From: Deltaproteobacteria bacterium
GTDB taxonomy: Bacteria > Myxococcota > XYA12-FULL-58-9 > JABJBS01
Length of the DNA stretch: 64,000 nucleotides
Assembly: GCA_018668695.1 (NCBI GenBank)
Contig: JABJBS010000322.1
Span: 5,718 to 69,717 of the forward strand
Direction of reading: 5' to 3'
A program made the translations under genes and the position numbers. The notes beneath the pieces were generated by a model. It was not told the DNA's origin and made no database searches. It saw nothing but the letters and a program-made list of their open reading frames with translations. Positions 14,028 to 56,700 of this stretch are shown one piece after another; within the stretch, counting starts at the first letter, position 1; the number at the start of each line of letters is the position of its first letter.

Positions 14028-15635
14028 ATGCGGCTCACATTATTCATTTTGATATTGAGCACAGCCCTTAGCAGTCCATGCCTGGCTCAAGTGTGCGAAG
14101 AAGATGCACTGCAATCTTCCCTGCAACACCTGCGGCGTCTAAGTATCGACTTAAAGGGGACCCTTCCGAACCTGAATCAATTGGAAGAAGTCATCAATGC
14201 CACGATGGTACCAGATTCCTTGGTCGACGACTTACTCAATTCCGACGCCTTTATCCAAGAGATGCGTAACTACCACCTCCAACTGCTTTGGACGAATATA
14301 TTGTCCCAGAGATTTACGCCCGGTGTCTGGATTTTACGCAAAGGAAACGCCGCAGATGGAACCGACGCCTATTGGCTCAGAGCCAATGGCCGTTCATCGC
14401 GTTATCGGGGTGGTCAAATTCCCTGCAAAGATGAGCCTGCTGAATTTGATACCGAGGGAAATATTCTAACAACCCCCTACCCAGGTGACCCCACCATGCA
14501 GCAAGAAGGCTATGTCGAAGTGGAACCCTGGTGGGCTCCGGGAACCACCGTCAAAGTATGTGCCTTTGATGCTCAAACCAACCTGGAAGGTGCAAACCCA
14601 AGCAACAACAACCCCGACCGTGTGGCCAATTGCTCAAGCCAGGTTGTAGAAACCTGTGGTTGCGGCGAGAATCTTCAGTGGTGCCACGCAAATAACCCAG
14701 CCACCGATAAAATCCTTGCCATCTCTATGGCAGAACAAATGCTGCGTTACATCGACAACATCATTCGAAACGACCGTCCTTACACCGATATCCTTTTGGG
14801 AACGGATGCTGAAATCAACGGTCCCATTTCCCACTGGTTGCAACACCAGACGCAAAACGGTGGCAATATTTTTATTACCAGCAGTGAGCAAAACCACGAC
14901 GTTTTAACCATACCTGCGAACGAAATTTATAATTGGCAAACCATCAACCGCTACGAGCGACATGCCGGCGTGCTCACCATGCCCGGCTTCTTGCTCAAGT
15001 ACCAAACGGACCGCAGCCGGGCCAACCGGTTTCATAACGCGTTTTTGTGCCAAAGCTTCCAAGCACCGGAAGGTGGCATCCCAACCGCCGAGGATAGCTG
15101 TAACGATGAACCCGACCTTCAGGAGCGGTGCGGATGTAAATACTGCCACGCCATGCTTGAGCCTGATGCTGCTCACTGGGGCCGCTGGGCGGAAGCCGGC
15201 ATGATGGCCATGAACGAAGATAAGTTTCCCGTTTTCGACCAAAATTGCGCCGAGGGTCGTAACAATGCCATTTGCCGCCTCTTTTACCTGCAGCCCAATG
15301 AAGCCGGTGATGTGGATAGCAAACTCCAAGATTACATTGGCACTCTCTACCCTTATGTTTTCACTGACACCGAAAGCCAAGACAACATCACTCAAGGGCC
15401 ACGCAAACTTGCCCAGAAAGCCATCGACCGAGGAGACTTCGCCGAATGCACGGTGAAGAAACTTTGGAACTATTTCATGAAAAGGCCGCCCTTAGACTCT
15501 GAAGCAGATCTTATGAGCGCATTGGCCAATGACTTTGCCGGTGACAACTACAATTTTCGCAACCTTGTTAAGCGAATCATCACCCGAGACGAATACATTC
15601 AATCCGAGCGATTCGGCATGGAGGACCCATCATGA
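14028..15635 (+). CDS. Secreted DUF1549 (PSCyt2)-like protein, possibly with a DUF1553-like remainder; contains a second CxxCH
   Basis: Signal peptide. N-terminal RRLSIDLKGTLPNLNQLEEV...LVDDLLNSDAF matches the conserved DUF1549 block (RRxSLDLxGxPPTxEE...LVDxLLxSxxF). CKYCH motif. DUF1800 is an alternative assignment. Confidence 0.5.
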   Translation: MRLTLFILILSTALSSPCLAQVCEEDALQSSLQHLRRLSIDLKGTLPNLNQLEEVINATMVPDSLVDDLLNSDAFIQEMRNYHLQLLWTNILSQRFTPGVWILRKGNAADGTDAYWLRANGRSSRYRGGQIPCKDEPAEFDTEGNILTTPYPGDPTMQQEGYVEVEPWWAPGTTVKVCAFDAQTNLEGANPSNNNPDRVANCSSQVVETCGCGENLQWCHANNPATDKILAISMAEQMLRYIDNIIRNDRPYTDILLGTDAEINGPISHWLQHQTQNGGNIFITSSEQNHDVLTIPANEIYNWQTINRYERHAGVLTMPGFLLKYQTDRSRANRFHNAFLCQSFQAPEGGIPTAEDSCNDEPDLQERCGCKYCHAMLEPDAAHWGRWAEAGMMAMNEDKFPVFDQNCAEGRNNAICRLFYLQPNEAGDVDSKLQDYIGTLYPYVFTDTESQDNITQGPRKLAQKAIDRGDFAECTVKKLWNYFMKRPPLDSEADLMSALANDFAGDNYNFRNLVKRIITRDEYIQSERFGMEDPS

Positions 15636-16258
15636 AAAACCTCTGTATCTTATACGCAATTCTCTTATTCGGATTTTCTCAGAGCGGATGTTCAGACGAC
15701 AGCCTCACCGAGCATCCGAACCAATGGAATGACCTCTTGCCCACAGACCACGGAGCGGTCGATGTTTATCCTCAGGAAGAAATATTCGGTAAGCGCGCCA
15801 GACGCATCTCAGTGGACAATCTAAGGCAGTCCATTCCCCAGCTATTTGATGGAATCAGCTGGACCAATGGAAACGGAAGCCGGAATCAATTCGACCAGCT
15901 CTCCGGAACACTCGGTGAAGCCGATTACCTGAATGTAACCCAAGAAAACACTGAGCCCAGTCCGCTCTTTGCCAAATTTATGGACGACATGGCTGGTCAT
16001 GTATGTGAAAAAGCTCTCGACGGTGACGCCCAGGGAACAAGTCAACACATTGTGATGTACCCAGATGACGTTAATGCCAATTTGAGATTTTTAAGACTCA
16101 AATTCCATGGCATCTATGTACCAGAAGGCTCGAACGATAGCCTCACAGATTTGCGGGCGCTTTATGAAGACATTCTCTCCCTCACCGATGAACCCAAGCA
16201 GGCCTGGTATGGCGTATGTATCGCTATTCTAACTGCTCCAGAACTTATGGCGTACTAA
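15632..16258 (+). CDS. Hypothetical lipoprotein
   Basis: Lipobox LLFGFSQSGC. 4-bp overlap with the upstream gene. No recognisable domain. Confidence 0.5.
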   Translation: MKNLCILYAILLFGFSQSGCSDDSLTEHPNQWNDLLPTDHGAVDVYPQEEIFGKRARRISVDNLRQSIPQLFDGISWTNGNGSRNQFDQLSGTLGEADYLNVTQENTEPSPLFAKFMDDMAGHVCEKALDGDAQGTSQHIVMYPDDVNANLRFLRLKFHGIYVPEGSNDSLTDLRALYEDILSLTDEPKQAWYGVCIAILTAPELMAY

Positions 16259-16268
16259 GAAAGGAATC

Positions 16269-17642
16269 ATGATGATGCATTGGACACGAAGAAGATTCCT
16301 CAAAACATTGGGCCTGGGCACCGCAGCGTTTTCACTCAACGCGCAGTGGATGCCTCAAGCATGGGCAGAAACCGCAAGCTCAAGACGGTTTATTGTTTGC
16401 TACTTCAGCGGCGGGTGGGACACTTTACTTTGCCTAGATCCTCGTAGCCCTGCTGATTTTCCAACCTTTAATCCAGGAAGCCAGACCGTCTACCCCGGTT
16501 ATGAAATGCTCGATGGGAGTTATCCCAGCGATGTTGTCATGCCAGATGCCGCAAGCTACCCACATATGACTTTTGGTCCCGCCATTGGCAACTTTGCTGC
16601 CGCGCATTATCAAAAAAGCTGTATTGTACGTGGTGTCAGTATGAACACGCTTACCCACGGGGTCGGTAGAAATTTCTTTTTAACCGGAAAAGAACCTCGA
16701 GGGTTAGCCGCCAATGGTTCAAGCCTGGGAACGCATACCGCAAGCGCTCAAGGCGAACTGCTGCCTATTCCAAACCTTGCAGCCAATGTATCTGCGTACA
16801 ATGAAGCCGAACCCAAATGGGCAAGCCCTTTAAGCGTCAACAATGTATCCGACCTCATTGCGGTGCTGGACGATGGACCCGATGCACCGGCTGGGGATAT
16901 TCGTGCAGCTCTAGACAGATACCGCAGCACTGCGGTGGACTGTGACCCGGCGCTTTATGACCGTAAAGGCTTTCTCGGCTTTATCCGTGATACACAAACC
17001 AAAGCGCGAGAACTGGTGGCCCAAGAGCTGAGCGGCCGCTTTAAATTCACCAACGGCAGCGACCCTGAAATGGTAGGCATTCGGGCCCGCTACGGTATCC
17101 CCGGGAATATGAGCGGGTCTGGAGCCCAGGCAGCCTTGGCCTATCAAGCTATCAAATACGATATCGCTCAATCGGTGACCATTCAGCTTGCCAGTGGTTT
17201 AGACACCCACGACGAAGATTGGGCAACAGACCACCCGGCCAATCTTCAAGAAGGTTTCAATGCCCTAAGCCAACTGGTTACTGATTTAGAAAATACGCCC
17301 AATCAAGAGGGCGGAACTCTGCTGGATAACACCACCATTCTTTGCTTCAGCGAATTTGGTCGAACGGCAAATATCAATGCTCGGGGAGGCAGAGATCACA
17401 ACTTGAACTCCGCCGCATTGATGCTCGGAGCTGGCGTTCCAAAAGGCGTTGTTATTGGAGGCACTTCAGACAATGGCTTAGGCAGTTACGGTATCAATCC
17501 CGAGACCGGAGCTGTTGTGGACGGTGGTCACGTTCTGACCCCAACCGATATTCATGCTTCGATTATGCAAGCAGCTGGCTTTGATACGGACTATCTTCGG
17601 ACCGAAGGCCTGCCTTGCTTGATGGATACGAGCGAGAACTAG
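16269..17642 (+). CDS. DUF1501-family (sulfatase/alkaline-phosphatase-like) protein with Tat signal
   Basis: Twin-arginine signal RRRFLKTLGLGTAAF. FSGGWDT near the N-terminus and SEFGRT...GGRDHN near the C-terminus are typical DUF1501 blocks. Confidence 0.7.
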   Translation: MMMHWTRRRFLKTLGLGTAAFSLNAQWMPQAWAETASSRRFIVCYFSGGWDTLLCLDPRSPADFPTFNPGSQTVYPGYEMLDGSYPSDVVMPDAASYPHMTFGPAIGNFAAAHYQKSCIVRGVSMNTLTHGVGRNFFLTGKEPRGLAANGSSLGTHTASAQGELLPIPNLAANVSAYNEAEPKWASPLSVNNVSDLIAVLDDGPDAPAGDIRAALDRYRSTAVDCDPALYDRKGFLGFIRDTQTKARELVAQELSGRFKFTNGSDPEMVGIRARYGIPGNMSGSGAQAALAYQAIKYDIAQSVTIQLASGLDTHDEDWATDHPANLQEGFNALSQLVTDLENTPNQEGGTLLDNTTILCFSEFGRTANINARGGRDHNLNSAALMLGAGVPKGVVIGGTSDNGLGSYGINPETGAVVDGGHVLTPTDIHASIMQAAGFDTDYLRTEGLPCLMDTSEN

Positions 17643-18381: not shown

Positions 18382-19275
18382 TCAATTGTTGTGATATTCA
18401 TCACGGGCAAAGCGAAGTTCGTCTTCAAATGCCGCGACGGTTTGCAAGGTGATGCGCCCCAGTTTTCCACCACGCAGCTCCCTGATGACGAGCTGACCGG
18501 CCTTCTCAACATCCACCACCCCGCCAGGTCGCAGGCAGCCCCGCTTACGGCCGATGTCTTCAAGTGTAATCCGTGGGTCTTCGTTGAGTTCTTTGAGTTT
18601 GTAGCGGCCTTTAATGTGTTCAGGATCAATGCGCCCCAAGGTCTGAATCGCAAAGCAAGCAATGTCGTGGATATCAATCACGGCATCTTTGATGGCGCCC
18701 GTGGCTGCCAAATAGGCCCCAACACGCTGGTCCTCAAACTTGTGCCAGAGAATTCCGGGCATATCGAGTAGTTCCATCTCTTTACTCATGCGCACCCATT
18801 GGGCTTTTCGGGTGACCGCCGGCTCATCACCTGTCCGGGCAATTTTTCGCATCGCCAACCGGTTGATCAGTGAAGATTTACCCACGTTTGGAATCCCCAC
18901 CGCCATCGCCCGGTAGCGTCTATCAAGCGGACGCTGACCGTTTTCTTTGCGATGAGCATCCACCACTTTTCGAACCGCACCCTCAATCTTCTTCACACCG
19001 TGTTCGCGCATGGCTTCGATGGGCATCGCTTGAATGTCTTGGGTCGCTTTAAAATGGTTCACCCAGCGGTCGGTTTCTTTAACGTCGGCCAAATCGCTTT
19101 TATTGAGTAAAATGAGCCTCGGCTTGCCTAAAGTCAGCTCACTTATAAGCGGATTACGGCTCGCCGCCGGCACCCGGGCATCTAAGAGTTCGAGTATAAT
19201 ATCCACGCGGCGCAGGTTTTCTTCGACCATGCGCTTGGCTTTTGTCATATGTCCGGGAAACCACTGAATCGTCAT
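18382..19275 (-). CDS. rbgA: Ribosome biogenesis GTPase A (YlqF/RbgA), circularly permuted GTPase
   Basis: MTIQWFPGHMTKAKR start, G4 motif LNKSDL preceding G1 GIPNVGKSSLINRL, DMPGILW. Hallmark of RbgA. Confidence 0.9.
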   Translation of the reverse strand: MTIQWFPGHMTKAKRMVEENLRRVDIILELLDARVPAASRNPLISELTLGKPRLILLNKSDLADVKETDRWVNHFKATQDIQAMPIEAMREHGVKKIEGAVRKVVDAHRKENGQRPLDRRYRAMAVGIPNVGKSSLINRLAMRKIARTGDEPAVTRKAQWVRMSKEMELLDMPGILWHKFEDQRVGAYLAATGAIKDAVIDIHDIACFAIQTLGRIDPEHIKGRYKLKELNEDPRITLEDIGRKRGCLRPGGVVDVEKAGQLVIRELRGGKLGRITLQTVAAFEDELRFARDEYHNN

Positions 19276-19339
19276 GAGCTGCTCTTATGGGATCCCACCC
19301 CAAAAACGCAAGCACTGGAATCCTTGGCCTAGCTCAGGC

Positions 19340-20365
19340 ATGCTGTGTTCTATGATCGATTGTCACGCTCACGCATTTCCAACCGTTGCGGAACTTAGTT
19401 CCCATTTGCCCGCCACAGCTCAGGCCTTTTTGACCAGCAGCACCGGCCAAACACTTAAAGACGTTGGTAAAAATGTGCTCTCGCAGCTACCGAAAAGCTC
19501 GCGGTTTGGAAAAATTGCTCGAGGGATCTCTTCCGTTATCCCGGCCTCCCTGCCCAAAGACTCGTCCCAGCTGGCTCAGCTGCGCGACAAACTTCCCGGG
19601 AATGTACATAAAAGTCTCGAGTTTTTCCTAAGCGCCGGTACGGGCCCCAAGCTTCTTCTCGACGGGACTGTCTCGAAGCTTATCGCCTCTATGGACCGCA
19701 ACGGCATTAAAAAGACCGTACTCATCGGCGCGCCGCCTCTAGCCGATGCGCCCTGGATCTTAAAAACATCGCTTGAGCATCCCGGACGCTTTATCCCGGT
19801 TCTAAACGTTCCACCGATTGCGGCAGAGTCAGGAGAAAAGGCCTGGCGTGCTGCCTACGAAGAATTGGCCGACCTTGGGGCAAGAGGTTTTAAGATTCAC
19901 CCCAATATGGATCCTTATCATCATCACCATTTAGCCTATCAGGCCATGTTTGAAGTGGCTCAAGAGCGCGGCCTATTCATCATTCTTCACACTGGGTGCT
20001 TTACGGTACCGGGCTACAAGTCGATGAAACCAAGTGAACCCGAGGATTTTTCTCATCTCTTTACGGCTTACCCTGATGTGAAAATCTGTTTGGCTCATAT
20101 GAACCGCGACCATCCTGAACGGGCCTGGGACATGATGAAACGCCACGAACAACTCTACACCGATACCAGCTGGCAGCCTTCTGCCAACATCACCCGCGCG
20201 CTCCACGAAATAGGCAGCGACCGAATTCTTCTGGGGTCGGACTGGCCGCTTTTAAACGATGACCTTCAAACCAATGCTATTCGCGAAATGCGAAGCGCTA
20301 CCAGTGACCACGTGTTTGAAAAGCTCACTGAGCACAACGCCAAATTTTTTCTGGGCGAAGCCTAA
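19340..20365 (+). CDS. Amidohydrolase-2 family TIM-barrel metal-dependent hydrolase
   Basis: IDCHAHAFP metal-binding start, ILHTGCF, LAHMNRDHPE, LLGSDWPL. Start at M23 or M27 of the ORF. Confidence 0.65.
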   Translation: MLCSMIDCHAHAFPTVAELSSHLPATAQAFLTSSTGQTLKDVGKNVLSQLPKSSRFGKIARGISSVIPASLPKDSSQLAQLRDKLPGNVHKSLEFFLSAGTGPKLLLDGTVSKLIASMDRNGIKKTVLIGAPPLADAPWILKTSLEHPGRFIPVLNVPPIAAESGEKAWRAAYEELADLGARGFKIHPNMDPYHHHHLAYQAMFEVAQERGLFIILHTGCFTVPGYKSMKPSEPEDFSHLFTAYPDVKICLAHMNRDHPERAWDMMKRHEQLYTDTSWQPSANITRALHEIGSDRILLGSDWPLLNDDLQTNAIREMRSATSDHVFEKLTEHNAKFFLGEA

Positions 20366-20371
20366 ACGGGC

Positions 20372-21055
20372 TCAATCCCAATTAGGAACCGGTCTTCCCG
20401 CCAGCTCATAAAAAAGCGACCCGTCATAAAACTTAGCAAGCCGTTCCCGGGTGAGTACTTGGGTCTCTGTTCCATTTACTTCCATCGGCTCGCCAGCAAT
20501 CTTCAACAAAATAGGTAGTTCGAGCTGCGCCAGCGCGCTGCCGAAGAAGCTTTCTCGATTACGAGTCAGAAAGTCGGAGATTTCATCGCCGTCGAGCGCA
20601 CCATCGTTGTTTTTATCAAAACGAGTAAACAGCTCTTCAAACTTCTTGGGATCAAACTCGCCATTGGCATCGAAAACGTCTGAGTCTGAATCGTGCTTCG
20701 ATTTTTGAATTCGGCTTAAATCGATGGTGAGCGCAGGATAACCAGCAACCATCGACGCAATCACAAAATTAACCGCAGCGGCTCCGGCATAACCCTTGAG
20801 GCCATCCACTCCGAGCTCTGCGAGACGCTCGCGAGATTCCCCTACGGTGATTTTTCCGTTGCCATTGGCATCAAAAAATCCAACGTGTTTAGCCAACGCC
20901 GTCGTTTGATGCTTACCCGGGGATGGGCGTGGGCCTTCGTAGGTGTCGAACGGGGTGGATGCCGGCGATGCCGAGCTGACTGAAGGTTCGGCCGCTGCTG
21001 CGCTTGGTATAAAAGAGGCGGCGTGGGCCGTAGAACTGGATGAGACGATAGGCAT
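20372..21055 (-). CDS. Caleosin-family (plant/fungal peroxygenase-like) EF-hand protein with Ala/Ser/Pro-rich N-terminal extension
   Basis: Collinear with Arabidopsis caleosin: KHVGFFDANGNGKITVGE (EF-hand plus conserved heme His), IQKSKHDSDSDVFDANGEFDP (second conserved His), FYDGSLFYELAG. Second canonical EF loop DKNNDGALDGDE. SD GGAGA 5 nt upstream. Confidence 0.7.
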   Translation of the reverse strand: MPIVSSSSTAHAASFIPSAAAAEPSVSSASPASTPFDTYEGPRPSPGKHQTTALAKHVGFFDANGNGKITVGESRERLAELGVDGLKGYAGAAAVNFVIASMVAGYPALTIDLSRIQKSKHDSDSDVFDANGEFDPKKFEELFTRFDKNNDGALDGDEISDFLTRNRESFFGSALAQLELPILLKIAGEPMEVNGTETQVLTRERLAKFYDGSLFYELAGRPVPNWD

Positions 21056-21268
21056 ATTTTTCTCCTTGCTGAGAACTTTATTCAGCGGGACAATCCGCCA
21101 CTGCCTATTATCGGGGAAACGCGTGAATTGTTGCGAGAATCTGGGAGAGGCTTGAATATCTTCCTGCCAATCTCAAAATATCTAATCGTTACAATCTAGT
21201 TTGGTCTCTTAGGGGAGGGTTCACTCATCTAAATAAGTCGAAGTGCTTCGTGGTTTCGGGCACCAAGA

Positions 21269-22057
21269 CTATGGTGAAATATTTAGACTACCTGAATCGC
21301 GGATGGCCTGCTTGAGCGCATTCTCTATTTCCTGACAGTTACTTCCCGAGTCTTGGATCAAAATCAGGTCGTCTAATTGATCAAATTCGCCATCGAGGAT
21401 GCATTGAGAAATCGGTAACGCGCTGAACCAGCTGGATGGGTCGAGATTCAAAAAGACTGATTCGGCAGCTTCTTGCGATAAGAGCTGCGCTTGTTCGTTA
21501 AGGTAACGAGCTTCAACGTTTACGTCGATGGTTATTCTAAAAGAGTCCCCAGTGCTCTCTATTTGTCCTTCCAATAGAAACGAATTATTCAAAAGTGGGT
21601 CGTCACTTTCTAATAACCCCCAGTCACTGCGAGCATCGTCAAACCGAACATCAACGCGGCGATAGGCGCCCGTGGGAATGGTTAAACCTGCTAGGCTCGG
21701 TGTAGCCTCTCCACTGAAAAGGTCCACAACAAAGGGCCCCTCAATACGAATTTTATCTTCATCGCACACGACAGGTTCTTCGAGTTCTAAAGCAACGTCT
21801 GCACAGCTAAGACCCTCTTGAAGATGGAAGTCTATGTCTCTAACGCCAACCTTAGCCGCGGTGAACGTAAAAGCTGCGTCGGCTTCATCGAGAACCGTTA
21901 TCGACTCTGTCTCCGTAAGAGACTGTGAGTTCTGCATCGTCATCGATACGGACGTCAGGCCATTACCGGTACTGGTACCAAGGCCATTGCCCGTACTGGT
22001 CCCGCTGCATCCAGCGGTGATACAAACTAAAAATATAGGAAGCCGGGTAAAATGCAT
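21269..22057 (-). CDS. Hypothetical lipoprotein with tandem GTSTGNGL repeat
   Basis: Lipobox ITAGCSG. 24-nt tandem duplication encoding GTSTGNGL x2. Confidence 0.5.
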   Translation of the reverse strand: MHFTRLPIFLVCITAGCSGTSTGNGLGTSTGNGLTSVSMTMQNSQSLTETESITVLDEADAAFTFTAAKVGVRDIDFHLQEGLSCADVALELEEPVVCDEDKIRIEGPFVVDLFSGEATPSLAGLTIPTGAYRRVDVRFDDARSDWGLLESDDPLLNNSFLLEGQIESTGDSFRITIDVNVEARYLNEQAQLLSQEAAESVFLNLDPSSWFSALPISQCILDGEFDQLDDLILIQDSGSNCQEIENALKQAIRDSGSLNISP

Positions 22058-22083
22058 CGTTAGACTCTCTTTAAACGTTTGCT

Positions 22084-22653
22084 TTAAGGGTACGCGCTGA
22101 ACTGAACATCCAGACTGATCCGCAATTCGAAATCATCGGGTAGATTCTCCTGTGCGCCACCGCGAACCCCCAGCTTAAACGAGCCTTCTCTTAGAGCTTC
22201 TTGAACCGTCACTAAGTTTTCATTGGTGACATCTTCCAAGGTTAACGTGCTCTCTGATGTTAACTCGACATTTCCCAAACTCGCGGTTGTATCACTTGTC
22301 GATATAAATATTTCCAAAGTTTCAAACACGGTAATAAAATCGACAATGCCCTTACTCTCGCTGTGAACTTGTAAAGCCACGCTGTCTATTTCAATCAACG
22401 AGGGGGACTCTCCTTCGAGGTGCTCATCAACAACCCGGAGAAAGTCGGCATAAGGGTTACCCTCTTCTGTATTTACATTCTTTGATTCTGAGACATACCC
22501 GTTGCGCACATCACCTTCTTTAATGCCGCTCAGCTTGAGGGAGATATAATCACTAACCGCCACAGGACTGCCGCAGCCTGAAGCCAAGAAAGCGAGTATC
22601 AACCCAGCAAGGCCAGGGTTAAGAATGATTCTGGAGCGCATTAATGTCCGCAT
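22084..22653 (-). CDS. Hypothetical lipoprotein
   Basis: Signal/lipobox ILAFLASGC. Start taken at the Met preceding the signal peptide. Confidence 0.5.
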   Translation of the reverse strand: MRTLMRSRIILNPGLAGLILAFLASGCGSPVAVSDYISLKLSGIKEGDVRNGYVSESKNVNTEEGNPYADFLRVVDEHLEGESPSLIEIDSVALQVHSESKGIVDFITVFETLEIFISTSDTTASLGNVELTSESTLTLEDVTNENLVTVQEALREGSFKLGVRGGAQENLPDDFELRISLDVQFSAYP

Positions 22654-22743
22654 ATTTCCGTATTCCGTAACCAAGCCTAATAGGTTCAACGAGACTGAAG
22701 AGTGGCTTATCATTTACAAACCATAGTGGTATTGATTCATCAA

Positions 22744-22771
22744 GGTGTATTCTAAATTAGTGTATTCTGAG
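22744..22771. repeat. Two adjacent copies of a GTGTATTCT motif, the second embedded in the palindrome TGTATTCTgagAGAATgCA
   Basis: GGTGTATTCTAAA at 22744-22756 and GTGTATTCTGAG at 22760-22771. A third exact 13-mer copy lies at 22884-22896. Confidence 0.4.
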
Positions 22772-22883
22772 AGAATGCACCTCAACACCAACTCCTTCCA
22801 ATGAACCCAGAGGTTAAATAGGCCAGCAATATCAGCGCAGTAAGTGGTCAGGAAACTTAGGCCGTGAGTCAATTAAGCATCAG

Positions 22884-22896
22884 GTGTATTCTAAAA
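22884..22896. repeat. Third copy (exact 13-mer GGTGTATTCTAAA) immediately upstream of the TIGR02147-family gene
   Basis: Exact 13-nt direct repeat of 22744-22756, 140 nt apart. Confidence 0.4.
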
Positions 22897-22968
22897 ATGG
22901 CAAATGGAGCACTTTTTAATGTTTTAAGCAGAGAAAACTTCTGCCATTCTCTCATCCACGGACATCTC

Positions 22969-23847
22969 ATGAAAACAATACGCCCTCAAACAACAGACTA
23001 TGACGACTACCGAATATTCCTGACGGAGCTCGTCACTCATTTACGGGAATCTTCGCGAAGTTTCTCATTTCGAAAGTTTTCGCGTAAAGCAGGGTATCAA
23101 TCTCCAAACTTTTTGAAGCTGGTCATCGAAGGCCAACGTAATATCTCCGAAGAGTCCATCGGACGGTTTGCAAAAGCTTTTGAACTTAGTGCCGGTGAAG
23201 AAAAAGATTTTGGGCACCTCGTTCGATTTAACCAATCGAAGACCGATGTCGAACGCAACAAAAATTACCAACTCTTGAAACGCAACCGCCCTGGCCCAAC
23301 TGCAGAACTTCATTCTGCCCAATACGATATTTACTCAAAATGGTATGCCCTGCCAATTCGTGAACTGTCGACGATACCCGGGTTTAAAGAAGACCCTGAA
23401 TGGATAGCATCACAATTCCGGGAAAACGTTACCGCTCATGAAGCGAGCCACGCATTAGACCTCTTACAAAAGGTTGGGCTCTTGATCAGAAATGCAGCCG
23501 GGCATCTGCGAGCTGCTGCTGCACGCTTAAAAACGGGCGCCGAGGTACCGCTGGCCGTGCGTAACTTTCATAGGTCGATGTTAGAACATACTCAGAAATC
23601 ACTCGATGGGCTCAGTACCCGCGAACGGCATGTCTCATCGCTCACCCAGGCCTTAACACGCGCTCAGTACGAAGACATTTGTGAAAGAATCGACACGTTT
23701 CGTGAAGACCTACTGCAAATCATGGAAGACGTACCCGCCCAGAACGAGGACGCACAAGTGTATTTTGTGGGTTTTGAAGTCATCCCATTAACGCAACCAA
23801 CGCTTCGCAATAGTGAATCGAATAAAAATACGAACCCTAAAACCTAA
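22969..23847 (+). CDS. TIGR02147/DUF4423-family putative HTH transcription regulator
   Basis: Block DYDDYRIFLTELVTHLRESSRSFSFRKFSRKAGYQSPNFLKLVIEGQRNIS...FGHLVRFNQSKT matches the conserved N-terminal HTH block of this family. Alternative start at 22897. Confidence 0.5.
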   Translation: MKTIRPQTTDYDDYRIFLTELVTHLRESSRSFSFRKFSRKAGYQSPNFLKLVIEGQRNISEESIGRFAKAFELSAGEEKDFGHLVRFNQSKTDVERNKNYQLLKRNRPGPTAELHSAQYDIYSKWYALPIRELSTIPGFKEDPEWIASQFRENVTAHEASHALDLLQKVGLLIRNAAGHLRAAAARLKTGAEVPLAVRNFHRSMLEHTQKSLDGLSTRERHVSSLTQALTRAQYEDICERIDTFREDLLQIMEDVPAQNEDAQVYFVGFEVIPLTQPTLRNSESNKNTNPKT

Positions 23848-23858
23848 AAGGAAACAAA

Positions 23859-24152
23859 ATGAGAAAGCCCTCCCCAACTAATATCTCTATGCCCATCTTC
23901 GCCAGTCTACTTGGACAGCCCACCGGCAGCACGATGTGTCGGCGCGATGTCGTTGAACAAGATATGGCTCACGGTAAACAAGGTCCCACTACCGCAACCA
24001 ACGCCCTGCGAGAGAGCAATCGAGAAAACACACAAATCCTATACCGACAGGCCGGTATCAATGCCTGGCTCAACGCGCCCTATGCACTTAATATCGCTTT
24101 GGTGGGGCTCTTAACCGCAGTGGCGACCGCACTCGTTTATCTTGTGCGCTAA
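23859..24152 (+). CDS. Small membrane protein (C-terminal TM helix)
   Basis: SD AAAGGAAAC 5 nt before the ATG. C-terminal hydrophobic helix LNIALVGLLTAVATALVYLV. 11 nt after the regulator gene. Confidence 0.45.
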   Translation: MRKPSPTNISMPIFASLLGQPTGSTMCRRDVVEQDMAHGKQGPTTATNALRESNRENTQILYRQAGINAWLNAPYALNIALVGLLTAVATALVYLVR

Positions 24153-24263
24153 GTAAAGCTCGGTTTTATCGCTAGATCATCTGGGGGGAACATCAGAGTC
24201 TGGGCGCTGAATTTGGGGCGGCGCTCAGACTCTTTCGACATCCAAAATCCACATGCGTTGGCC

Positions 24264-25259
24264 CTAGAGATCTCGAAACCAAGACAGAGTTTCTAAACTC
24301 GGGGCTTTCATCACCTTGGCGGCCGTTGCTAAATAAATCGAATACATCTCAAGTGAGCCGCTACTAAGTGCTTGGCTCGAAGGCAACGTCCATTCACCGC
24401 CGCCTTGGTCGCCGCCGTAAGATTCCTGGATATCCCACGCACTGCTGATCACCCAATAAGCATATTCCTGAAGGTAAATACGCATTCTTTCGTCGCTGCT
24501 TTGCGGACCGTAATCGGCATTGTAATAACCGCTACTAAGAGCATCCAGCATATGGGTGTGGTGGGTGGACTCTCGGTTAACACCCCAATCGTCGTAAAAT
24601 GTATAGTGCAAGCCCACCATAGTGACATGGTGGAGGATATGCTCTACCACTTCCATGGTCTGGCCTTCTCCGCCTATTTCAAAAATAGCATCGCACAAGC
24701 TGTTGTTGTCGTGTACCCGGTCAAACTGAGTTTCCGCTTCGCCGCTAAACTCTACCCCAACGTCACCTTTAAAAAATGGAATCACAGTTTTGCGTTCATA
24801 CATCGAACGAATCACTTTGCGCTGCAGTTCAGCATCCAAACTGGAATCGTTTTCGGGAAACATCTCTTCCACCGCCTGCGCCACCTTGAGCATGAACGCA
24901 TCGGTATTATCATCCTGGCCCATAAGCGTGATGCCTCGAACGCGAATGATTTTGGTAAACGGAAGATAGGCATCGGTTTGAACCAAGCCACTATTTTCAT
25001 AAAGATTCTCGGGTACCTCTCCCGAGGGACTCGAGATCACGCAGCCGCCAATAGGGGCTGGTATCGCGGCGGTATCTGGAGCTTCCTCAGCCCTCTCGCC
25101 TATCTCGTCGCTGGAGGTATTCGTGGTACCTGTGTCCGCGTTGTCGCCCCCTGTAATGGGTTCAGGCGATTCTTGGTTCGCCGTCCCGCAGCCGCTCGGC
25201 ACGGCCGCGCCGAGCACCACTGCGCTTAGCCATATGTATTTTCGTAAAGCCTGCTTCAT
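24264..25259 (-). CDS. Hypothetical lipoprotein
   Basis: Lipobox AVPSGCG, acidic linker. No confident domain. Confidence 0.5.
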   Translation of the reverse strand: MKQALRKYIWLSAVVLGAAVPSGCGTANQESPEPITGGDNADTGTTNTSSDEIGERAEEAPDTAAIPAPIGGCVISSPSGEVPENLYENSGLVQTDAYLPFTKIIRVRGITLMGQDDNTDAFMLKVAQAVEEMFPENDSSLDAELQRKVIRSMYERKTVIPFFKGDVGVEFSGEAETQFDRVHDNNSLCDAIFEIGGEGQTMEVVEHILHHVTMVGLHYTFYDDWGVNRESTHHTHMLDALSSGYYNADYGPQSSDERMRIYLQEYAYWVISSAWDIQESYGGDQGGGEWTLPSSQALSSGSLEMYSIYLATAAKVMKAPSLETLSWFRDL

Positions 25260-27847: not shown

Positions 27848-29782
27848 TTAGGCTAAAACTTTAAAAAGCGGCTTTTGAGACTTAACCCCTTTAAGCTCAA
27901 AATCACCGGCGTATTCCGTCTCTTGAAGTAAACCCTCAGCCACGGCTCCAGAGACATAAACCGAACCGGGCTCACACGCTGATTCTATCCGAGCCGCAAT
28001 GTTCACAGTGTGACCAATGGCCGTATAGTCGGCGCGTTTGTCTGAGCCGAAATTACCGACAACCGCCGGGCCTTGATGAATCCCAATTCTCATCGAAAGC
28101 TCGGGATAACCCTTCTCTGCACACCGTTTTGTAAAGACCTGCATCTTCTCTTGCATCGCTAAACCGCAGCTTACCGAGCGCTCACGTTGCTCCTGAGTAC
28201 TCATCGATTTAGGCGCCCCAAAGATGACCATCACCGCGTCGCCAATAAATTTATCGATGGTTCCGCCATGCTCAAAAATCACATCACTCATCACACTTAA
28301 GTAATCATTCAAGAGTTCCGTGATGACCTCTGCACCATACTGCTCACAGGTGGACGTAAATCCTGCCAAGTCCGAAAATAGGATGGTAATGTTACGGCTA
28401 TGGGGTGCTTCATCCATTGTAATCTCTTTAGCCAAGAGTTCATCTACGAGTTGAGGCGGGAGGTAGCGATTCATAATATGGGCAGATAAGAGCTGCTCAG
28501 CTTCGGCATGGTCTTTCTCTTTTTCGAGAACCTGCAGTTTGTCTGCCAAGGCAAAGGAAAGCAGAACAATTTCCGCTGCAGCTCCCAATTGAAATGCATA
28601 ATTTGTGAGAACATTAGCCTCTACCAAACCTACGGTCTTTAAAACGAGGACAGCTTCTCCAATCAATAACATGCCCCACGATGCTAAGTAATAACGTGCA
28701 GGGTGATACCCTTGCCGGACCACACAGAGCGCCGCTGTTATCCAAACAACAATCATACAAACAGCCAACACAACGGTGCTTATGAGAACCACGCGGTTTG
28801 ATAAAACGAAGGCCCCGACCAAAAGGCTCAAAGACAAATAGGTAAGGCCACGTGCTATTAGAGCCAAGCGAGGCAGGCGCTCACGCATTTGCAAGAAAGA
28901 ATAGGTAAATAAGTTTCCGAATAGTGAAAGCGTAATGAGAGCTAGAGAGAGGCCTTGGTTAACCCAGTAAGGAGAGTCCGGCACGAAGAACTCACTCCAG
29001 ATACCATTGCCACAGACCGCCGCCCATCCAAGCGAGAGTACGTAGAACAAATAGTAGAGATGGCTTCGCTCTCGATTAAGAAGATAAATAAAGAGATTGT
29101 AAAAAAAAGTGAGTAAGACAATCCCATAAAACATGCCGATGACCAGCCGAAAGTCCCGCTCAGACTTGCGCAAGGCGTCCAAGGTAAGAACCGCTAATGG
29201 GAGCTGAATGGAGCTTGAGGATTCAACCCTTAAAAGAACAGTGGAGGTCTTTCCGTAGGAGGTCTCGAGTGGGAAAACAAAATTGTGATGTAGAATTGCT
29301 CGGTTGTTAAACGGCAGTATATCGCCGCCGCCTAAGTGCAGCACCCCGCCATCCGCATCGACTTGGTAAAAATCAATTTGGTCTAAATAAGGGTGCCCCA
29401 ACTCCAAGACCCATGTCTTGGCCAAGGGTGTCCTTACGCGAAAGTCAAAACGTAGCCAGTATGCTGACTCACTGAGCCCAAATTGGGGAACCTCTTTGTC
29501 AGCGATCTTCCAAAGCCCTGAACGCACGGGTGACTGGACATCTGAAAGAGTGAAGAGACCTTCTTCGTCCTCGAGCGTGTAGAGATGCCCCAAGAGCGTT
29601 TGCTGCTCCGTTGAACCATCTATAACCAGAGCTTGGGCGAAAACCTGCCCGGGCAAAGCACAAGCTGCCCATACGACAACTAAAAGCTGCAGATAGAGAT
29701 TGGTACTCCTGGGTTCACAAACTGTCTGTCTTGGGTTCACACTTGAGCTTATTGATTTTTCGAGTCGATCCCAAGAGAACAA
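27848..29782 (-). CDS. Receptor-type class III adenylate/guanylate cyclase (7TMR-DISM extracellular and 7TM domains plus CHD)
   Basis: Signal peptide, periplasmic domain, 7 TM helices. C-terminal cyclase domain ILFSDLAGFT...HGGTIDKFIGDAVMVIFGAP...IGIHQGPAVVGNFG. Confidence 0.8.
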   Translation of the reverse strand: MFSWDRLEKSISSSVNPRQTVCEPRSTNLYLQLLVVVWAACALPGQVFAQALVIDGSTEQQTLLGHLYTLEDEEGLFTLSDVQSPVRSGLWKIADKEVPQFGLSESAYWLRFDFRVRTPLAKTWVLELGHPYLDQIDFYQVDADGGVLHLGGGDILPFNNRAILHHNFVFPLETSYGKTSTVLLRVESSSSIQLPLAVLTLDALRKSERDFRLVIGMFYGIVLLTFFYNLFIYLLNRERSHLYYLFYVLSLGWAAVCGNGIWSEFFVPDSPYWVNQGLSLALITLSLFGNLFTYSFLQMRERLPRLALIARGLTYLSLSLLVGAFVLSNRVVLISTVVLAVCMIVVWITAALCVVRQGYHPARYYLASWGMLLIGEAVLVLKTVGLVEANVLTNYAFQLGAAAEIVLLSFALADKLQVLEKEKDHAEAEQLLSAHIMNRYLPPQLVDELLAKEITMDEAPHSRNITILFSDLAGFTSTCEQYGAEVITELLNDYLSVMSDVIFEHGGTIDKFIGDAVMVIFGAPKSMSTQEQRERSVSCGLAMQEKMQVFTKRCAEKGYPELSMRIGIHQGPAVVGNFGSDKRADYTAIGHTVNIAARIESACEPGSVYVSGAVAEGLLQETEYAGDFELKGVKSQKPLFKVLA

Positions 29783-30768: not shown

Positions 30769-32016
30769 CTACGACTCGCTGGGTGCTTCTTCCAGCGGGC
30801 AATAAAGCACCACGGGTTGCTCCCGGCCTCGAATCGGAACTTTTGCCACCGAGCGCCAATGAAAAGCTTCACCAGAACGAAGCCTCGTTTCATCAGAGAC
30901 CAAGATCGGTGTTTTCTGATCCTTCGTCAACTGCTCAATGCGGGCCGTCAGATTGACCGTATCACCGATCACCGTGTAATCCCGGCGCTCAGCTGAACCA
31001 ACATCCCCCAGGACCGCAGGGCCACTGTGAATCCCAATGCCCACCGAAAACTCTGCTTCACCGCGACTGCTCCTAAGTGTGTTGAGTTCTGCAAGTTCGT
31101 TCAACATGCCCATGGCACAAGCTACGGCCGATGTGGCGCTGTTCTGGTCTTCGTTATGCCCCCCAAAATAAGCCAGGATTCCATCGCCCATAAATTTATC
31201 CAAGGTTCCCCCGTGGGCGAAAATGATAGTGACCATCGCTTCGAAGTACTCATTGAGGTGAGTCACCAAAGTACCAGGATCCATGGTCTCAGCCAGCTTG
31301 GTAAAACCCCGAATATCCGCGAAAAGAACAGTGATATGACACCGCCGACTTTCAGTACCCTCCTGGGCAATCTGGGCCGCTACCGCCGGAGAAAAATAGC
31401 GCGCAAGTCGTGAACGCGCCTCCTCCTCAAAGTGAATCCGATGAATCAAACGGTGCTGATAGGCCACGGTCATCATACCGATGCCGCCAGCAAAAAAGAT
31501 GAGTAAGGCATCTGTTAAAATAAATTGGGTGGGGAAATCGATAGCAGCTTCGAGGTAAACCAACGAGCCGATGCCCGCAATGGTCACTGCGGCAATCGTC
31601 GTGCGCCGAAGCGTTAATATCGCGATGAGTAAAATAACGAGAATAAGCGCCATGGCCACGCCAAATGATCGAACGTGCCGACCGGTTTCAATCGCAAGTT
31701 CGTACTGCATCCAAAGTGCAAAAGGTAGGTCCACCACCGCGAGAAAAAGAGTCGACGGAACTCGGATGCCTGAATATTTTCGGTAGCAAAATAAAACAGT
31801 TGCTGCGAGCGCAAGGTAGACCAGTAGGTAAGGTATTTGTTGGCGATAGCTGGAGAGCTCGGAGAGAGCACTGAAGAGAAGACTCAAGCCCAACCACACC
31901 AGAGCCCCAATCACCCGTATCTTAAGGACTGTATCAGCGAGCGTCTGGCGTTGCCGGTCGATGGCTTGCCGGACTTGCTCGGAGAATTCTGTTGTTTTTC
32001 GATTCGACCAGTTCAC
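30769..32016 (-). CDS. Membrane-anchored class III adenylate/guanylate cyclase (6TM plus CHD)
   Basis: Six N-terminal TM helices. VLFADIRGFT...HGGTLDKFMGDGILAYFG...IGIHSGPAVLGDVGS. Confidence 0.8.
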   Translation of the reverse strand: MNWSNRKTTEFSEQVRQAIDRQRQTLADTVLKIRVIGALVWLGLSLLFSALSELSSYRQQIPYLLVYLALAATVLFCYRKYSGIRVPSTLFLAVVDLPFALWMQYELAIETGRHVRSFGVAMALILVILLIAILTLRRTTIAAVTIAGIGSLVYLEAAIDFPTQFILTDALLIFFAGGIGMMTVAYQHRLIHRIHFEEEARSRLARYFSPAVAAQIAQEGTESRRCHITVLFADIRGFTKLAETMDPGTLVTHLNEYFEAMVTIIFAHGGTLDKFMGDGILAYFGGHNEDQNSATSAVACAMGMLNELAELNTLRSSRGEAEFSVGIGIHSGPAVLGDVGSAERRDYTVIGDTVNLTARIEQLTKDQKTPILVSDETRLRSGEAFHWRSVAKVPIRGREQPVVLYCPLEEAPSES

Positions 32017-36674: not shown

Positions 36675-36778
36675 CTCAGCGTCCCATTTTGACCTAAAAC
36701 GGTTCAAAGCCTTATGGCATCAGGCTTGCAGTAGTTCATACGAAGACAAGAAACCACGACGCACCAGGGGAGAGAGTG

Positions 36779-56661: not shown

Positions 56662-56700
56662 TCCATGGAGCTTAGTGTGAATGCCAGCAACTGACAATGC

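What the first reader, a model, noticed from the sequence alone, without database searches (positions are those of the whole stretch)
20372..21055. Bacterial caleosin (peroxygenase-type EF-hand heme protein) homologue
The product is collinear with plant/fungal caleosins. It has the EF-hand loop DANGNGKITVGE, both His residues that ligate heme in plant peroxygenases (KHVGFF and KSKHDSDS), and the C-terminal YDGSLF signature. It lacks the proline-knot lipid-body anchor. It carries an Ala/Ser/Pro-rich N-terminal extension and a second canonical EF loop DKNNDGALDGDE. Caleosins are overwhelmingly eukaryotic, so this points to horizontal transfer or an ancient bacterial lineage. A peroxygenase could act on fatty-acid hydroperoxides, fitting the lipid-degradation theme of the window.
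Basis: partly seen in the sequence, partly recalled or inferred. Interest (0 to 1): 0.6.

Follow-up and report, generated by a model that had tools for sequence, protein, structure and literature searches.

The report
Bacterial caleosin with two calcium loops
This is a real, well-conserved bacterial gene of the caleosin/peroxygenase family, best known from plant and fungal oil bodies; it belongs to a large, mostly unstudied bacterial branch of that family, so it is a new member of a known family rather than a new kind of gene.

Summary
Window 20372-21055 (minus strand) encodes a 227-aa protein with a good ribosome-binding site. It matches Pfam Caleosin PF05042 over the whole model (E 3.5e-30, 105.6 bits, cutoff 27).

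Both family-invariant histidines are present (H57, H121), as are the YDGSLF motif and two canonical EF loops. The proline knot is absent. Residues 1-49 form a disordered Ala/Ser/Pro-rich extension.

The gene is native, not contamination or a recent plant/fungal transfer:
- Its GC content matches its neighbours.
- It is syntenic in three related lineages (70-81% identity).
- dN/dS is about 0.05.
- In an NJ tree, 33 bacterial sequences separate from 13 eukaryotic ones with 100% bootstrap.

Homologues occur in GTDB genomes labelled as about ten bacterial lineages, including complete Sorangium genomes. Bacterial caleosin-like genes were already reported in Sorangium and Legionella, and JGI already names this exact protein "peroxygenase".

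The most likely function is a Ca2+-binding heme protein that uses hydroperoxides to oxidise or reduce lipids. This is inferred, not shown. The "lipid-degradation theme" is weak, because the lipid-related genes are scattered and no operon partner is conserved.

Verdict: new member of a known kind, modest interest.

The parts
20372..21055 (-). Caleosin-family gene, 227 aa plus stop codon
   Evidence: ORF list and translation. PF05042 E 3.5e-30, 105.6 bits, model 2-170/170. dN/dS 0.048 against the 81%-identical orthologue.
21062..21067 (-). Shine-Dalgarno AAGGAG, 6 nt upstream of the ATG
   Evidence: Read directly from the sequence.
20909..21055 (-). N-terminal extension, residues 1-49. It is Ala/Ser/Pro-rich, predicted disordered, and has no signal-peptide-like hydrophobic core.
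   Evidence: pLDDT below 50 for residues 1-49. dN is 0.44 here against 0.046 in the domain. Best 10-aa hydropathy is 1.31, below the 2.2 cutoff used as a signal-peptide heuristic.
20885..20887 (-). His57 codon, the first invariant His (aligns with the plant QQH-xFFD His)
   Evidence: Alignment with labelled eukaryotic caleosins. His in 171 of the 176 aligned sequences not gapped here.
20837..20872 (-). EF loop 1, DANGNGKITVGE (residues 62-73)
   Evidence: Canonical ligand positions 1, 3, 5 and 12, with Gly at 6. The column conservation is D62, N/D64, D/N66, E73.
20726..20797 (-). Central hydrophobic helix (residues 87-110), with no proline knot
   Evidence: Maximum 19-aa Kyte-Doolittle hydropathy 1.62. 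The EF1-to-His121 segment containing this helix is 47 aa with 1 Pro, against 50-51 aa with 2-6 Pro in eukaryotes. Predicted helix at 85-103.
20693..20695 (-). His121 codon, the second invariant His (the KSKH-DSDS motif)
   Evidence: Invariant in alignments A1, A2 and A3, in all 45 sequences that align at this column of the 46-sequence alignment, and in 179 of 184 aligned sequences.
20582..20617 (-). EF loop 2, DKNNDGALDGDE (residues 147-158). It is canonical here but degenerate in plants and fungi.
   Evidence: Pfam EF-hand_1 32 bits (cutoff 25.4) at residues 138-165. Alignment against eukaryotes.
20411..20428 (-). C-terminal YDGSLF signature (residues 210-215)
   Evidence: Y210, G212, L214 and F215 are invariant or nearly invariant.

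Best explanation
This is a native, vertically inherited gene of a marine-type Bdellovibrionota-like bacterium. The identical protein is deposited from a "Deltaproteobacteria bacterium" MAG. It encodes a member of the caleosin/peroxygenase family (PF05042).

It belongs to a large bacterial subfamily that differs from plant and fungal caleosins in three ways. It has two canonical Ca2+-binding EF loops instead of one, it lacks the proline knot, and its central segment is about 4 residues shorter.

Shown: family membership, conservation of both family-invariant histidines and of the EF-loop ligand positions, purifying selection, and synteny.

Inferred from the biochemistry of plant and fungal members (as summarised in PMC5957377):
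- The protein binds heme through His57 and/or His121.
- It needs Ca2+ for its active fold.
- It uses an organic, probably fatty-acid, hydroperoxide as oxygen donor. It reduces the hydroperoxide to the alcohol while epoxidising or hydroxylating an unsaturated lipid (plant seed peroxygenase chemistry, EC 1.11.2.3).

Because it has no signal peptide and keeps one moderately hydrophobic helix, it most likely works at the cytoplasmic face of the inner membrane as a peripheral protein. There it would detoxify or remodel peroxidised lipids.
For: - PF05042 full-length hit.
- H57 and H121 lie in the invariant His columns shared with labelled plant, algal and fungal caleosins.
- Two canonical EF loops; the second passes Pfam EF-hand thresholds.
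- Strong SD sequence.
- dN/dS 0.048, with the domain about 10 times more constrained than the N-terminal extension.
- The same downstream gene order (Amidohydro_2, YlqF-type GTPase, 172-aa ORF, DUF1501, 208-aa ORF, PSD2) is found in three related lineages at 70-81% identity.
- GC is 0.50, against 0.51-0.54 on the amidohydrolase/GTPase side; the upstream island is lower, 0.43-0.49.
- The bacterial/eukaryotic bipartition has 100% bootstrap.
- Bacterial loci carry labels for about ten lineages, including complete Sorangium genomes.
- The literature states that the two invariant His and Ca2+ are required for the peroxygenase activity of plant and fungal members (PMC5957377).
Against: - No bacterial caleosin has been characterised biochemically in anything I could find.
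- No solved structure exists for any family member; PDB sequence searches return only generic EF-hand proteins. His-heme geometry could therefore not be checked.
- No oxylipin-pathway partner (lipoxygenase, desaturase, catalase) is adjacent, and no neighbour is conserved across phyla.
- The canonical second EF loop and the missing proline knot could mean a different, more sensor-like role than in plants.
- About 19% of homologues carry signal-peptide or lipobox-like N-termini, so localisation is not uniform in the family.
Confidence: 0.6

Rival explanations
1. It is a Ca2+ sensor or buffer of the calmodulin-like EF-hand type with no catalytic heme. The conserved histidines would be structural or bind another ligand, and the protein would signal through Ca2+-dependent conformational change or membrane binding.
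For: - Two canonical EF loops.
- The model has four helix-loop-helix units, and the best PDB fold matches are compact calmodulin complexes (E 9e-4, prob 1.00).
- The profile search of PDB hits only EF-hand Ca2+ sensors and buffers.
- The window is rich in signalling genes: three adenylate/guanylate cyclases, a Ser/Thr kinase and response regulators.
Against: - The two His, the KH-SDS-D motif and YDGSLF are conserved across bacteria and eukaryotes at a level not expected for a generic sensor. In plants and fungi these residues are tied to heme-dependent activity.
- The fold match to calmodulin is weak (TM 0.25/0.36).
Confidence: 0.22
2. It is mainly a structural coat or anchor protein of lipid inclusions or membranes, like the structural role of seed caleosins on oil bodies. 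Enzymatic activity would be secondary or absent.
For: - It retains a hydrophobic central helix whose maximum hydropathy (1.62) is higher than in most bacterial homologues (1.0-1.4).
- Plant caleosins have a documented structural role on lipid droplets.
Against: - The proline knot, which in plants goes with lipid-droplet targeting, is absent, and the segment is 4 residues shorter.
- No neutral-lipid synthesis genes (wax ester synthase, PHA synthase) are nearby.
- In the AF2 model the hydrophobic helix is packed as a helix of the second EF-hand-like unit, not an exposed hairpin.
Confidence: 0.1
3. It is eukaryotic contamination or a chimeric contig, or a very recent horizontal transfer from a plant, alga or fungus.
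For: Named database members are mostly plants and fungi. Earlier papers interpreted bacterial cases as isolated transfers from plants.
Against: - Bacterial SD sequence.
- Bacterial neighbours on both sides.
- GC equal to that of the conserved downstream flank.
- Conserved synteny in three related bacterial lineages.
- dS is saturated between orthologues, showing long residence.
- 100% bootstrap separation from all 13 eukaryotic sequences.
- Only 28-38% identity to eukaryotic members.
Confidence: 0.02

Closest known systems
Plant seed caleosin / peroxygenase (CLO/PXG, e.g. Arabidopsis AtCLO1/PXG1, maize caleosin; EC 1.11.2.3; Pfam PF05042)
   Same: - Collinear over the whole Pfam domain.
- Same first EF loop position.
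- The same two invariant His, in QKH-xFFD and K-x-K-H-x-SDS contexts.
- The same FEE-F helix and the same YDGSLF C-terminal motif.
- The motif-2 consensus [32 protein letters not shown] quoted in PMC5957377 matches the window's RIQKSKHDSDSDVFDANGEFDPKKFEELFTRF at 17 of 32 positions (my count).
   Different: - Only about 28-35% identity.
- No proline knot (PGWxPSPxxPIY), and a central segment 4 residues shorter.
- EF loop 1 lacks the eukaryotic IYPWE ending.
- The second loop is a canonical Ca2+ site (DKNNDGALDGDE), whereas plants and fungi have a degenerate AKT-P--LT.
- No H-domain; instead a disordered Ala/Ser/Pro extension.
- Activity is untested.
Sorangium cellulosum CLO/PXG-like proteins (Rahman et al. 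2018, PLoS One, PMC5957377)
   Same: Bacterial proteins with an EF hand plus both His. They fall in the same bacterial half of the tree, and they also have a canonical second loop (DKDRDGALNARE) and no proline knot.
   Different: - About 38-39% identity to the window protein over the aligned segment, in a separate, well-supported clade.
- Multi-copy in Sorangium according to the paper.
- The paper interpreted them as isolated HGT from plant L-caleosins, which the present tree does not support.
Caleosin-domain proteins of the Legionella longbeachae clade (Gomez-Valero et al., bioRxiv 10.1101/350777; mBio review PMC7542358)
   Same: A bacterial occurrence of the Pfam Caleosin domain.
   Different: - They are described as eukaryote-like effector candidates acquired from plants.
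- None was recovered by my peptide-pattern scan, so their relation to the window's clade was not tested.
Calmodulin-like four-EF-hand proteins
   Same: The AF2 model shows four helix-loop-helix units with short beta bridges between the loops. The best PDB fold hits are compact calmodulin complexes aligned over 155-160 columns. Both canonical loops hit EF-hand profiles.
   Different: - The fold match is weak (TM 0.25/0.36).
- The second and fourth units are degenerate, and the fourth carries a beta-hairpin insertion.
- Calmodulins have no counterpart of the invariant His pair or of the YDGSLF motif.

Membership tests
Caleosin / peroxygenase (Pfam PF05042) | Sequence match to PF05042 above the gathering score, over the full domain | tested here: met
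   E 3.5e-30, 105.6 bits against a cutoff of 27, model positions 2-170/170, residues 50-219.
Caleosin / peroxygenase (Pfam PF05042) | Conserved Ca2+-binding EF-hand N-terminal to the hydrophobic segment | tested here: met
   DANGNGKITVGE at 62-73 has canonical ligand positions and aligns with the EF loop of plant, algal and fungal members. Actual Ca2+ binding was not tested.
Caleosin / peroxygenase (Pfam PF05042) | Two invariant histidines, described in the literature as heme-coordinating | tested here: met
   H57 and H121 occupy the invariant His columns shared with 13 labelled eukaryotic caleosins. Conserved in 171 of 176 non-gapped sequences and 179 of 184. The role of the His pair is taken from PMC5957377.
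Caleosin / peroxygenase (Pfam PF05042) | [quoted passage not shown] | tested here: inconclusive
   A hydrophobic stretch, AAVNFVIASMVAGYPALTI, is present (Kyte-Doolittle 1.62 over 19 aa). Eukaryotes score 1.3-2.05, and the segment here is 4 residues shorter.
Caleosin / peroxygenase (Pfam PF05042) | Proline knot / proline-rich motif (PGWxPSPxxPIY) linked to lipid-droplet association | tested here: not met
   Only one Pro (YPA) in the segment, with gaps at the knot positions. The same holds for all 33 bacterial sequences aligned. This is a feature of the eukaryotic lipid-droplet caleosins rather than of the Pfam family as a whole.
Caleosin / peroxygenase (Pfam PF05042) | C-terminal conserved [YF]DGSLF box | tested here: met
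   YDGSLF at 210-215. Y210, G212, L214 and F215 are invariant or nearly so.
Caleosin / peroxygenase (Pfam PF05042) | Heme binding and hydroperoxide-dependent oxygenase activity (EC 1.11.2.3) | not testable with these tools
   No solved structure of any family member exists to model against. This needs biochemistry.
Bacterial two-EF-loop caleosin subfamily (defined here) | Canonical second EF loop (D-x-[DNS]-x-[DNS]-...-[ED]) at the position that is degenerate in plants and fungi, with no Pro at position 10 of EF loop 1 | tested here: met
   DKNNDGALDGDE. Pfam EF-hand_1 32 bits. 138 of the 184 aligned sequences share both features. Nearly all bacterial genome loci share them too (Polyangiaceae L043, with a degenerate second loop, is the clear exception), while the land-plant and fungal sequences do not.
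Calmodulin-like EF-hand proteins | Paired EF-hands forming a four-EF-hand globular fold | tested here: inconclusive

The most novel reading that the evidence does not exclude
Bacterial caleosins would not be scattered acquisitions from plants. They would form the older, more diverse lineage of the family, which keeps an ancestral two-Ca2+-site, four-EF-hand-like architecture. The eukaryotic caleosins of plants and fungi would then derive from a bacterial donor by losing the second Ca2+ site and gaining the proline-knot lipid-droplet anchor. This would overturn the published LECA-origin and plant-to-bacterium HGT views. It would also give a soluble or peripheral bacterial model for obtaining the first structure of this heme enzyme family.
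Probability: 0.3. Interest if true: 0.55.

Novelty: new member of a known kind. Interest (0 to 1): 0.33.

Why it matters
Caleosin/peroxygenases are an unusual class of heme enzymes built on an EF-hand scaffold. [quoted passage not shown]

This gene is one well-anchored example of a broad bacterial branch: it is syntenic, under purifying selection, and separated from eukaryotes with 100% bootstrap. That branch bears on where the family came from.

Its members lack the lipid-droplet anchor, so they may be easier to express and crystallise than the plant enzymes. As an individual gene, however, it is already recognisable by Pfam and already labelled "peroxygenase" by JGI. Nothing in its surroundings points to a new pathway.

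Tried and rejected
- **Conserved operon partner.** All-against-all BLASTP of every ORF of at least 80 aa within about 6-7 kb of the gene, in 43 bacterial loci plus the window. It found only generic families (ABC ATPases, histidine kinases) and antisense shadow ORFs of the gene itself, so there is no functional partner.
- **Lipid-degradation theme.** Pfam annotation of 40 ORFs across the window found FadL (4164-5489), a Zn-phospholipase C (32080-33489) and a PAF-AH-like hydrolase (39621-41015). They are scattered, on other transcription units, and sit among unrelated genes.
- **Promoter and terminator scan.** Nothing was found in the 213-nt upstream spacer, and the counts are no higher than in shuffles.
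- **First genome scan with the diverse alignment A1.** It was redone with A2, which used a single peptide pattern, so the bacterial census is an undercount and may be biased.
- **Model coordinates.** Not exposed to scripts, so the His57-His121 distance and a heme pocket could not be examined.
- **NCBIfam.** It gave only a sub-threshold EF-hand match to XopAW (18 bits against a cutoff of 120), which I rejected as meaningless.
- **Residues 122-133 (DSDSDVFDANGE).** They match a loose EF-loop regular expression. They lack Gly6 and flanking helices and correspond to the family's KH-GSDS-G-YD motif, so I rejected them as a third EF loop.
- **One broad literature search** returned mostly irrelevant myxobacterial papers.

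Full report

Yes. The ORF list shows a 227-aa ATG-initiated ORF at 20372-21055 on the minus strand. An AAGGAG Shine-Dalgarno sequence sits 6 nt upstream of the ATG.

Against Pfam, the protein matches Caleosin PF05042 with E 3.5e-30 and 105.6 bits (gathering score 27). The match covers model positions 2-170 of 170, which are residues 50-219. The region 138-165 independently passes the EF-hand_1 threshold (32 bits, cutoff 25.4) and the EF-hand_6 threshold (31.7 bits, cutoff 25).

**2. The diagnostic residues**

I collected 184 homologues from two large libraries and aligned them.
- His57 is His in 171 of the 176 aligned sequences not gapped at that column.
- His121 is His in 179 of 184.
- The EF-loop ligand columns and Y210, G212 and L214 are similarly conserved.

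I also aligned the window protein with 32 proteins from named bacterial genomes and 13 labelled eukaryotic caleosins. The eukaryotes were maize, Dioscorea, Ginkgo, Lactuca, Sarracenia, Lycium, Klebsormidium, Chlorokybus, Closterium, Myrmecia, Blastocladiella, Sorochytrium and Phialocephala; their labels come. In that alignment both His sit in the invariant His columns: the plant QQH-xFFD context and the HK-x-KH-GSDS context.

From my memory of the AtCLO1 sequence, these correspond to His70 and His138. That numbering is recalled, not tested. [quoted passage not shown]

**3. How the bacterial form differs from the plant and fungal form**

- *EF loop 1.* Eukaryotes end it with IYPWE; bacteria have K-I-T-x-x-E.
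- *Proline knot.* Eukaryotes carry PGWxPSPxxPIY. Bacteria have gaps there. The window's segment between EF1 and His121 is 47 aa with one Pro, against 50-51 aa with 2-6 Pro.
- *Second loop.* It is canonical (D-x-N-x-D-G-A-L-x-x-x-E) in nearly all bacterial sequences. It is degenerate (AKT-P--LT) in land plants and fungi, and half-degenerate (DR--KG-LT) in green algae.

The window protein still has a fairly hydrophobic helix, AAVNFVIASMVAGYPALTI (Kyte-Doolittle 1.62 over 19 aa). That is more hydrophobic than in most bacterial homologues (1.0-1.4) and at the low end of eukaryotes (1.3-2.05).

Of the 184 aligned sequences, 138 combine a canonical second loop with the absence of the eukaryotic Pro in loop 1.

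**4. Is it native to a bacterium?**

Yes, on several independent lines.
- The identical protein is deposited from a "Deltaproteobacteria bacterium" MAG. NCBI calls it hypothetical; JGI calls it "peroxygenase".
- The neighbours are bacterial: Amidohydro_2 (convergent, 6 nt away), a YlqF-type GTPase, DUF1501, PSD2/DUF1585 and DUF4423.
- GC over the gene is 0.50, against 0.51-0.54 on the amidohydrolase/GTPase side.
- The same downstream gene order recurs next to orthologues of 75% (Bdellovibrionales MAG L001), 81% (L046) and 70% (L044) identity. That order is caleosin, Amidohydro_2, GTPase, 172-aa ORF, DUF1501, 208-aa ORF, PSD2.
- Between the window and L046, dN is 0.114 and dS is 2.37, giving dN/dS of 0.048. 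dS is close to saturation, and the other pairs are fully saturated. The caleosin domain (dN 0.046) is about ten times more constrained than the N-terminal extension (dN 0.44).

**5. How widespread is it in bacteria?**

A single degenerate peptide pattern, KHx[SG]D[TS][DG][VI][YF]D, scanned over one genome per GTDB species returned 43 confirmed loci. They carry labels for:
- a Bdellovibrionales MAG;
- several Myxococcota and Polyangiaceae MAGs;
- more than ten complete Sorangium genomes;
- Acidobacteriota/Vicinamibacteria;
- Planctomycetota;
- Vulcanimicrobiota;
- Xenobia;
- Burkholderiales-labelled MAGs;
- Elusimicrobia;
- Sericytochromatia/Cyanobacteria.

This is an undercount, because only one pattern was used. 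In the 1.84-billion-representative library the query has 510 hits at E up to 1e-3 and 226 at E up to 1e-10. A profile search found 883 proteins at E up to 1e-10 among the candidates scored. In that list the unnamed metagenomic sequences rank above the named plant caleosins.

**6. Phylogeny**

I built a neighbour-joining tree on 185 trimmed columns, using Kimura-corrected distances and 100 bootstraps.
- It separates the 13 eukaryotic from the 33 bacterial sequences with 100% support.
- The window groups with the Bdellovibrionales MAG at 100%.
- The Acidobacteriota (99%) and Sorangium (100%) clades are distinct.
- Deep branching inside the bacterial half is unresolved, with supports of 2-36%.

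The tree is unrooted, so the direction of any inter-domain transfer is undetermined. The window protein is clearly not nested in plants or fungi, which rules out a recent transfer. The NJ method and the small eukaryotic sample are limitations.

**7. Structure**

AlphaFold2 was run with a 34-sequence alignment and gave mean pLDDT 67.9 and pTM 0.64. Residues 1-49 are disordered, and the core blocks score 78-90.

The secondary structure reads as four helix-loop-helix units:
- H53-61 / loop 62-73 / H71-80;
- H85-103 / strand 110-112 / H113-118;
- H136-146 / loop 147-158 / H156-168;
- H175-187 / beta hairpin 189-202 / H203-211.

On this reading the caleosin domain looks like two EF-hand pairs, in which units 1 and 3 are canonical in bacteria. 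Foldseek against PDB gives compact calmodulin complexes as best hits (E 9e-4, probability 1.00, about 159 aligned columns), but with low TM-scores of 0.25/0.36.

Sequence and profile searches of PDB find only generic EF-hand proteins, matched over stretches of roughly 30-55 residues. I could therefore identify no solved caleosin structure.

His57 lies in the entering helix of unit 1, and His121 just after the exiting helix of unit 2. In an EF-hand pair these two helices pack against each other, so a shared heme site is geometrically plausible. That is an inference; I could not measure it.

**8. Localisation**

The window's clade has no signal-peptide-like hydrophobic core in its N-terminus. 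Its best 10-aa hydropathy is 1.31, against 2.4-3.1 in the homologues flagged as having clear signal peptides or lipoboxes. About 19% of homologues (30 of 158) have such exported-type N-termini.

The extension keeps a conserved start (mostly MP[ITS][IV]SS) and a conserved D[TS]YEGP[RK]P motif just before the domain, while the rest diverges quickly. A cytoplasmic, peripherally membrane-associated location is the simplest reading. This is inference.

**9. Context and the "lipid theme"**

No neighbour is conserved across phyla. Within the window, lipid-related genes exist but are 11-19 kb away and sit among unrelated genes. They are FadL/TodX at 4164-5489, a Zn-dependent phospholipase C at 32080-33489, and a PAF-acetylhydrolase-like alpha/beta hydrolase at 39621-41015.

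In the 70% orthologue lineage the gene is preceded by an SDR, a TetR regulator and a Rieske oxygenase instead. Context therefore does not inform function.

**10. What is known already**

- Rahman et al. 2018 (PMC5957377) described CLO/PXG-like sequences in Sorangium cellulosum with the EF hand, both His and a lipid-binding domain. They read them as isolated HGT, probably from plant L-caleosins, and noted no homologues in close relatives.
- Gomez-Valero et al. (bioRxiv 10.1101/350777) reported a Caleosin domain in the Legionella longbeachae clade "and only four prokaryotic genomes".
- Rahman et al. [quoted passage not shown]
- A 2025 paper on caleosin origins does not mention bacteria at all.
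- I found no paper describing the broad bacterial branch, or the canonical second EF loop, in the searchable library. That is an absence of evidence within this library only.

**11. Verdict**

The finding is a correct identification of a bacterial caleosin/peroxygenase-family protein. It is a new member of a known family, already recognised by Pfam and labelled by JGI, with plausible but untested heme-peroxygenase chemistry.

The more interesting point is collective rather than specific to this gene. The bacterial branch is large, spans many bacterial lineages, is cleanly separated from eukaryotes, and has two canonical Ca2+ sites. That fits poorly with the published "isolated HGT from plants" picture and leaves a bacterial origin open.

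Interest is modest (0.33).

Noticed in passing
window 21089-24255: About 3.1 kb directly upstream of the caleosin gene has no counterpart in the 81%-orthologue lineage L046. There the 331/333-aa gene (window 24264-25259) lies only about 400 nt from the caleosin gene.

The segment holds two lipoprotein-like ORFs with no Pfam hit (21269-22057 and 22084-22713, both with Cys-containing lipobox-like N-termini), a DUF4423 protein (22864-23847) and a small ORF (23859-24152). It has lower GC (0.43-0.47 against 0.50-0.53), so it looks like an inserted islet, or a deletion in the relative.
   Followed up: partly
window 20909-21055 (residues 1-49) and homologues P0002-P0016, P0020, P0037, P0041: The disordered N-terminal extension evolves about 10 times faster than the domain, yet it keeps its length (about 49 aa), a conserved start that is mostly MP[ITS][IV]SS, and a D[TS]YEGP[RK]P motif. 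A similar MP-x-x-S start recurs in clades only 40-50% identical. It could be a targeting or secretion signal of unknown type; this is unexplained.
   Followed up: partly
homologues P0039, P0044, P0051, P0053, P0058, P0060, P0065 (not in the window): About 19% of the homologues (30 of 158 scored) have signal-peptide or lipobox-like N-termini, so part of the subfamily seen in bacterial genomes is probably exported to the periplasm or outer membrane. The window's clade is not.
   Followed up: partly
L014/L016 and L015/L017: Caleosin paralogues from a "Candidatus Xenobia" MAG and from "Burkholderiales" MAGs are nearly identical pairwise in the tree. This suggests mis-binning or mislabelling of one of these MAGs, or very recent transfer. 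Phylum labels of the MAG loci should therefore be read with caution.
   Followed up: no
window 27848-29782, 30769-32016, 36776-39760: Three adenylate/guanylate-cyclase-domain genes lie within 12 kb: one fused to 7TMR-DISM sensor domains and one fused to NB-ARC plus TPR (STAND-type). This is a notable concentration of cyclic-nucleotide signalling genes.
   Followed up: no
window 20365-20372: The caleosin gene and the convergent Amidohydro_2 gene (19274-20365) end 6 nt apart, and the two overlap by 4 nt in the 70% orthologue lineage L044. No terminator-like hairpin was found between them. This tail-to-tail pairing is conserved in all four lineages examined.
   Followed up: partly
window 14028-17642: A PSD2/DUF1585 protein, a 208-aa ORF and a DUF1501 protein, a gene set typical of Planctomycetota-type "PSD/DUF1501" systems, are conserved next to the caleosin block in all related lineages.
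   Followed up: no
window 45992-46882 and 55279-56697: A Peptidase_M91 "effector protein" domain ORF and a 472-aa trypsin-domain ORF sit alongside the phospholipase C and the lipase-like hydrolase. This is consistent with a predatory or degradative Bdellovibrionota-like lifestyle.
   Followed up: no
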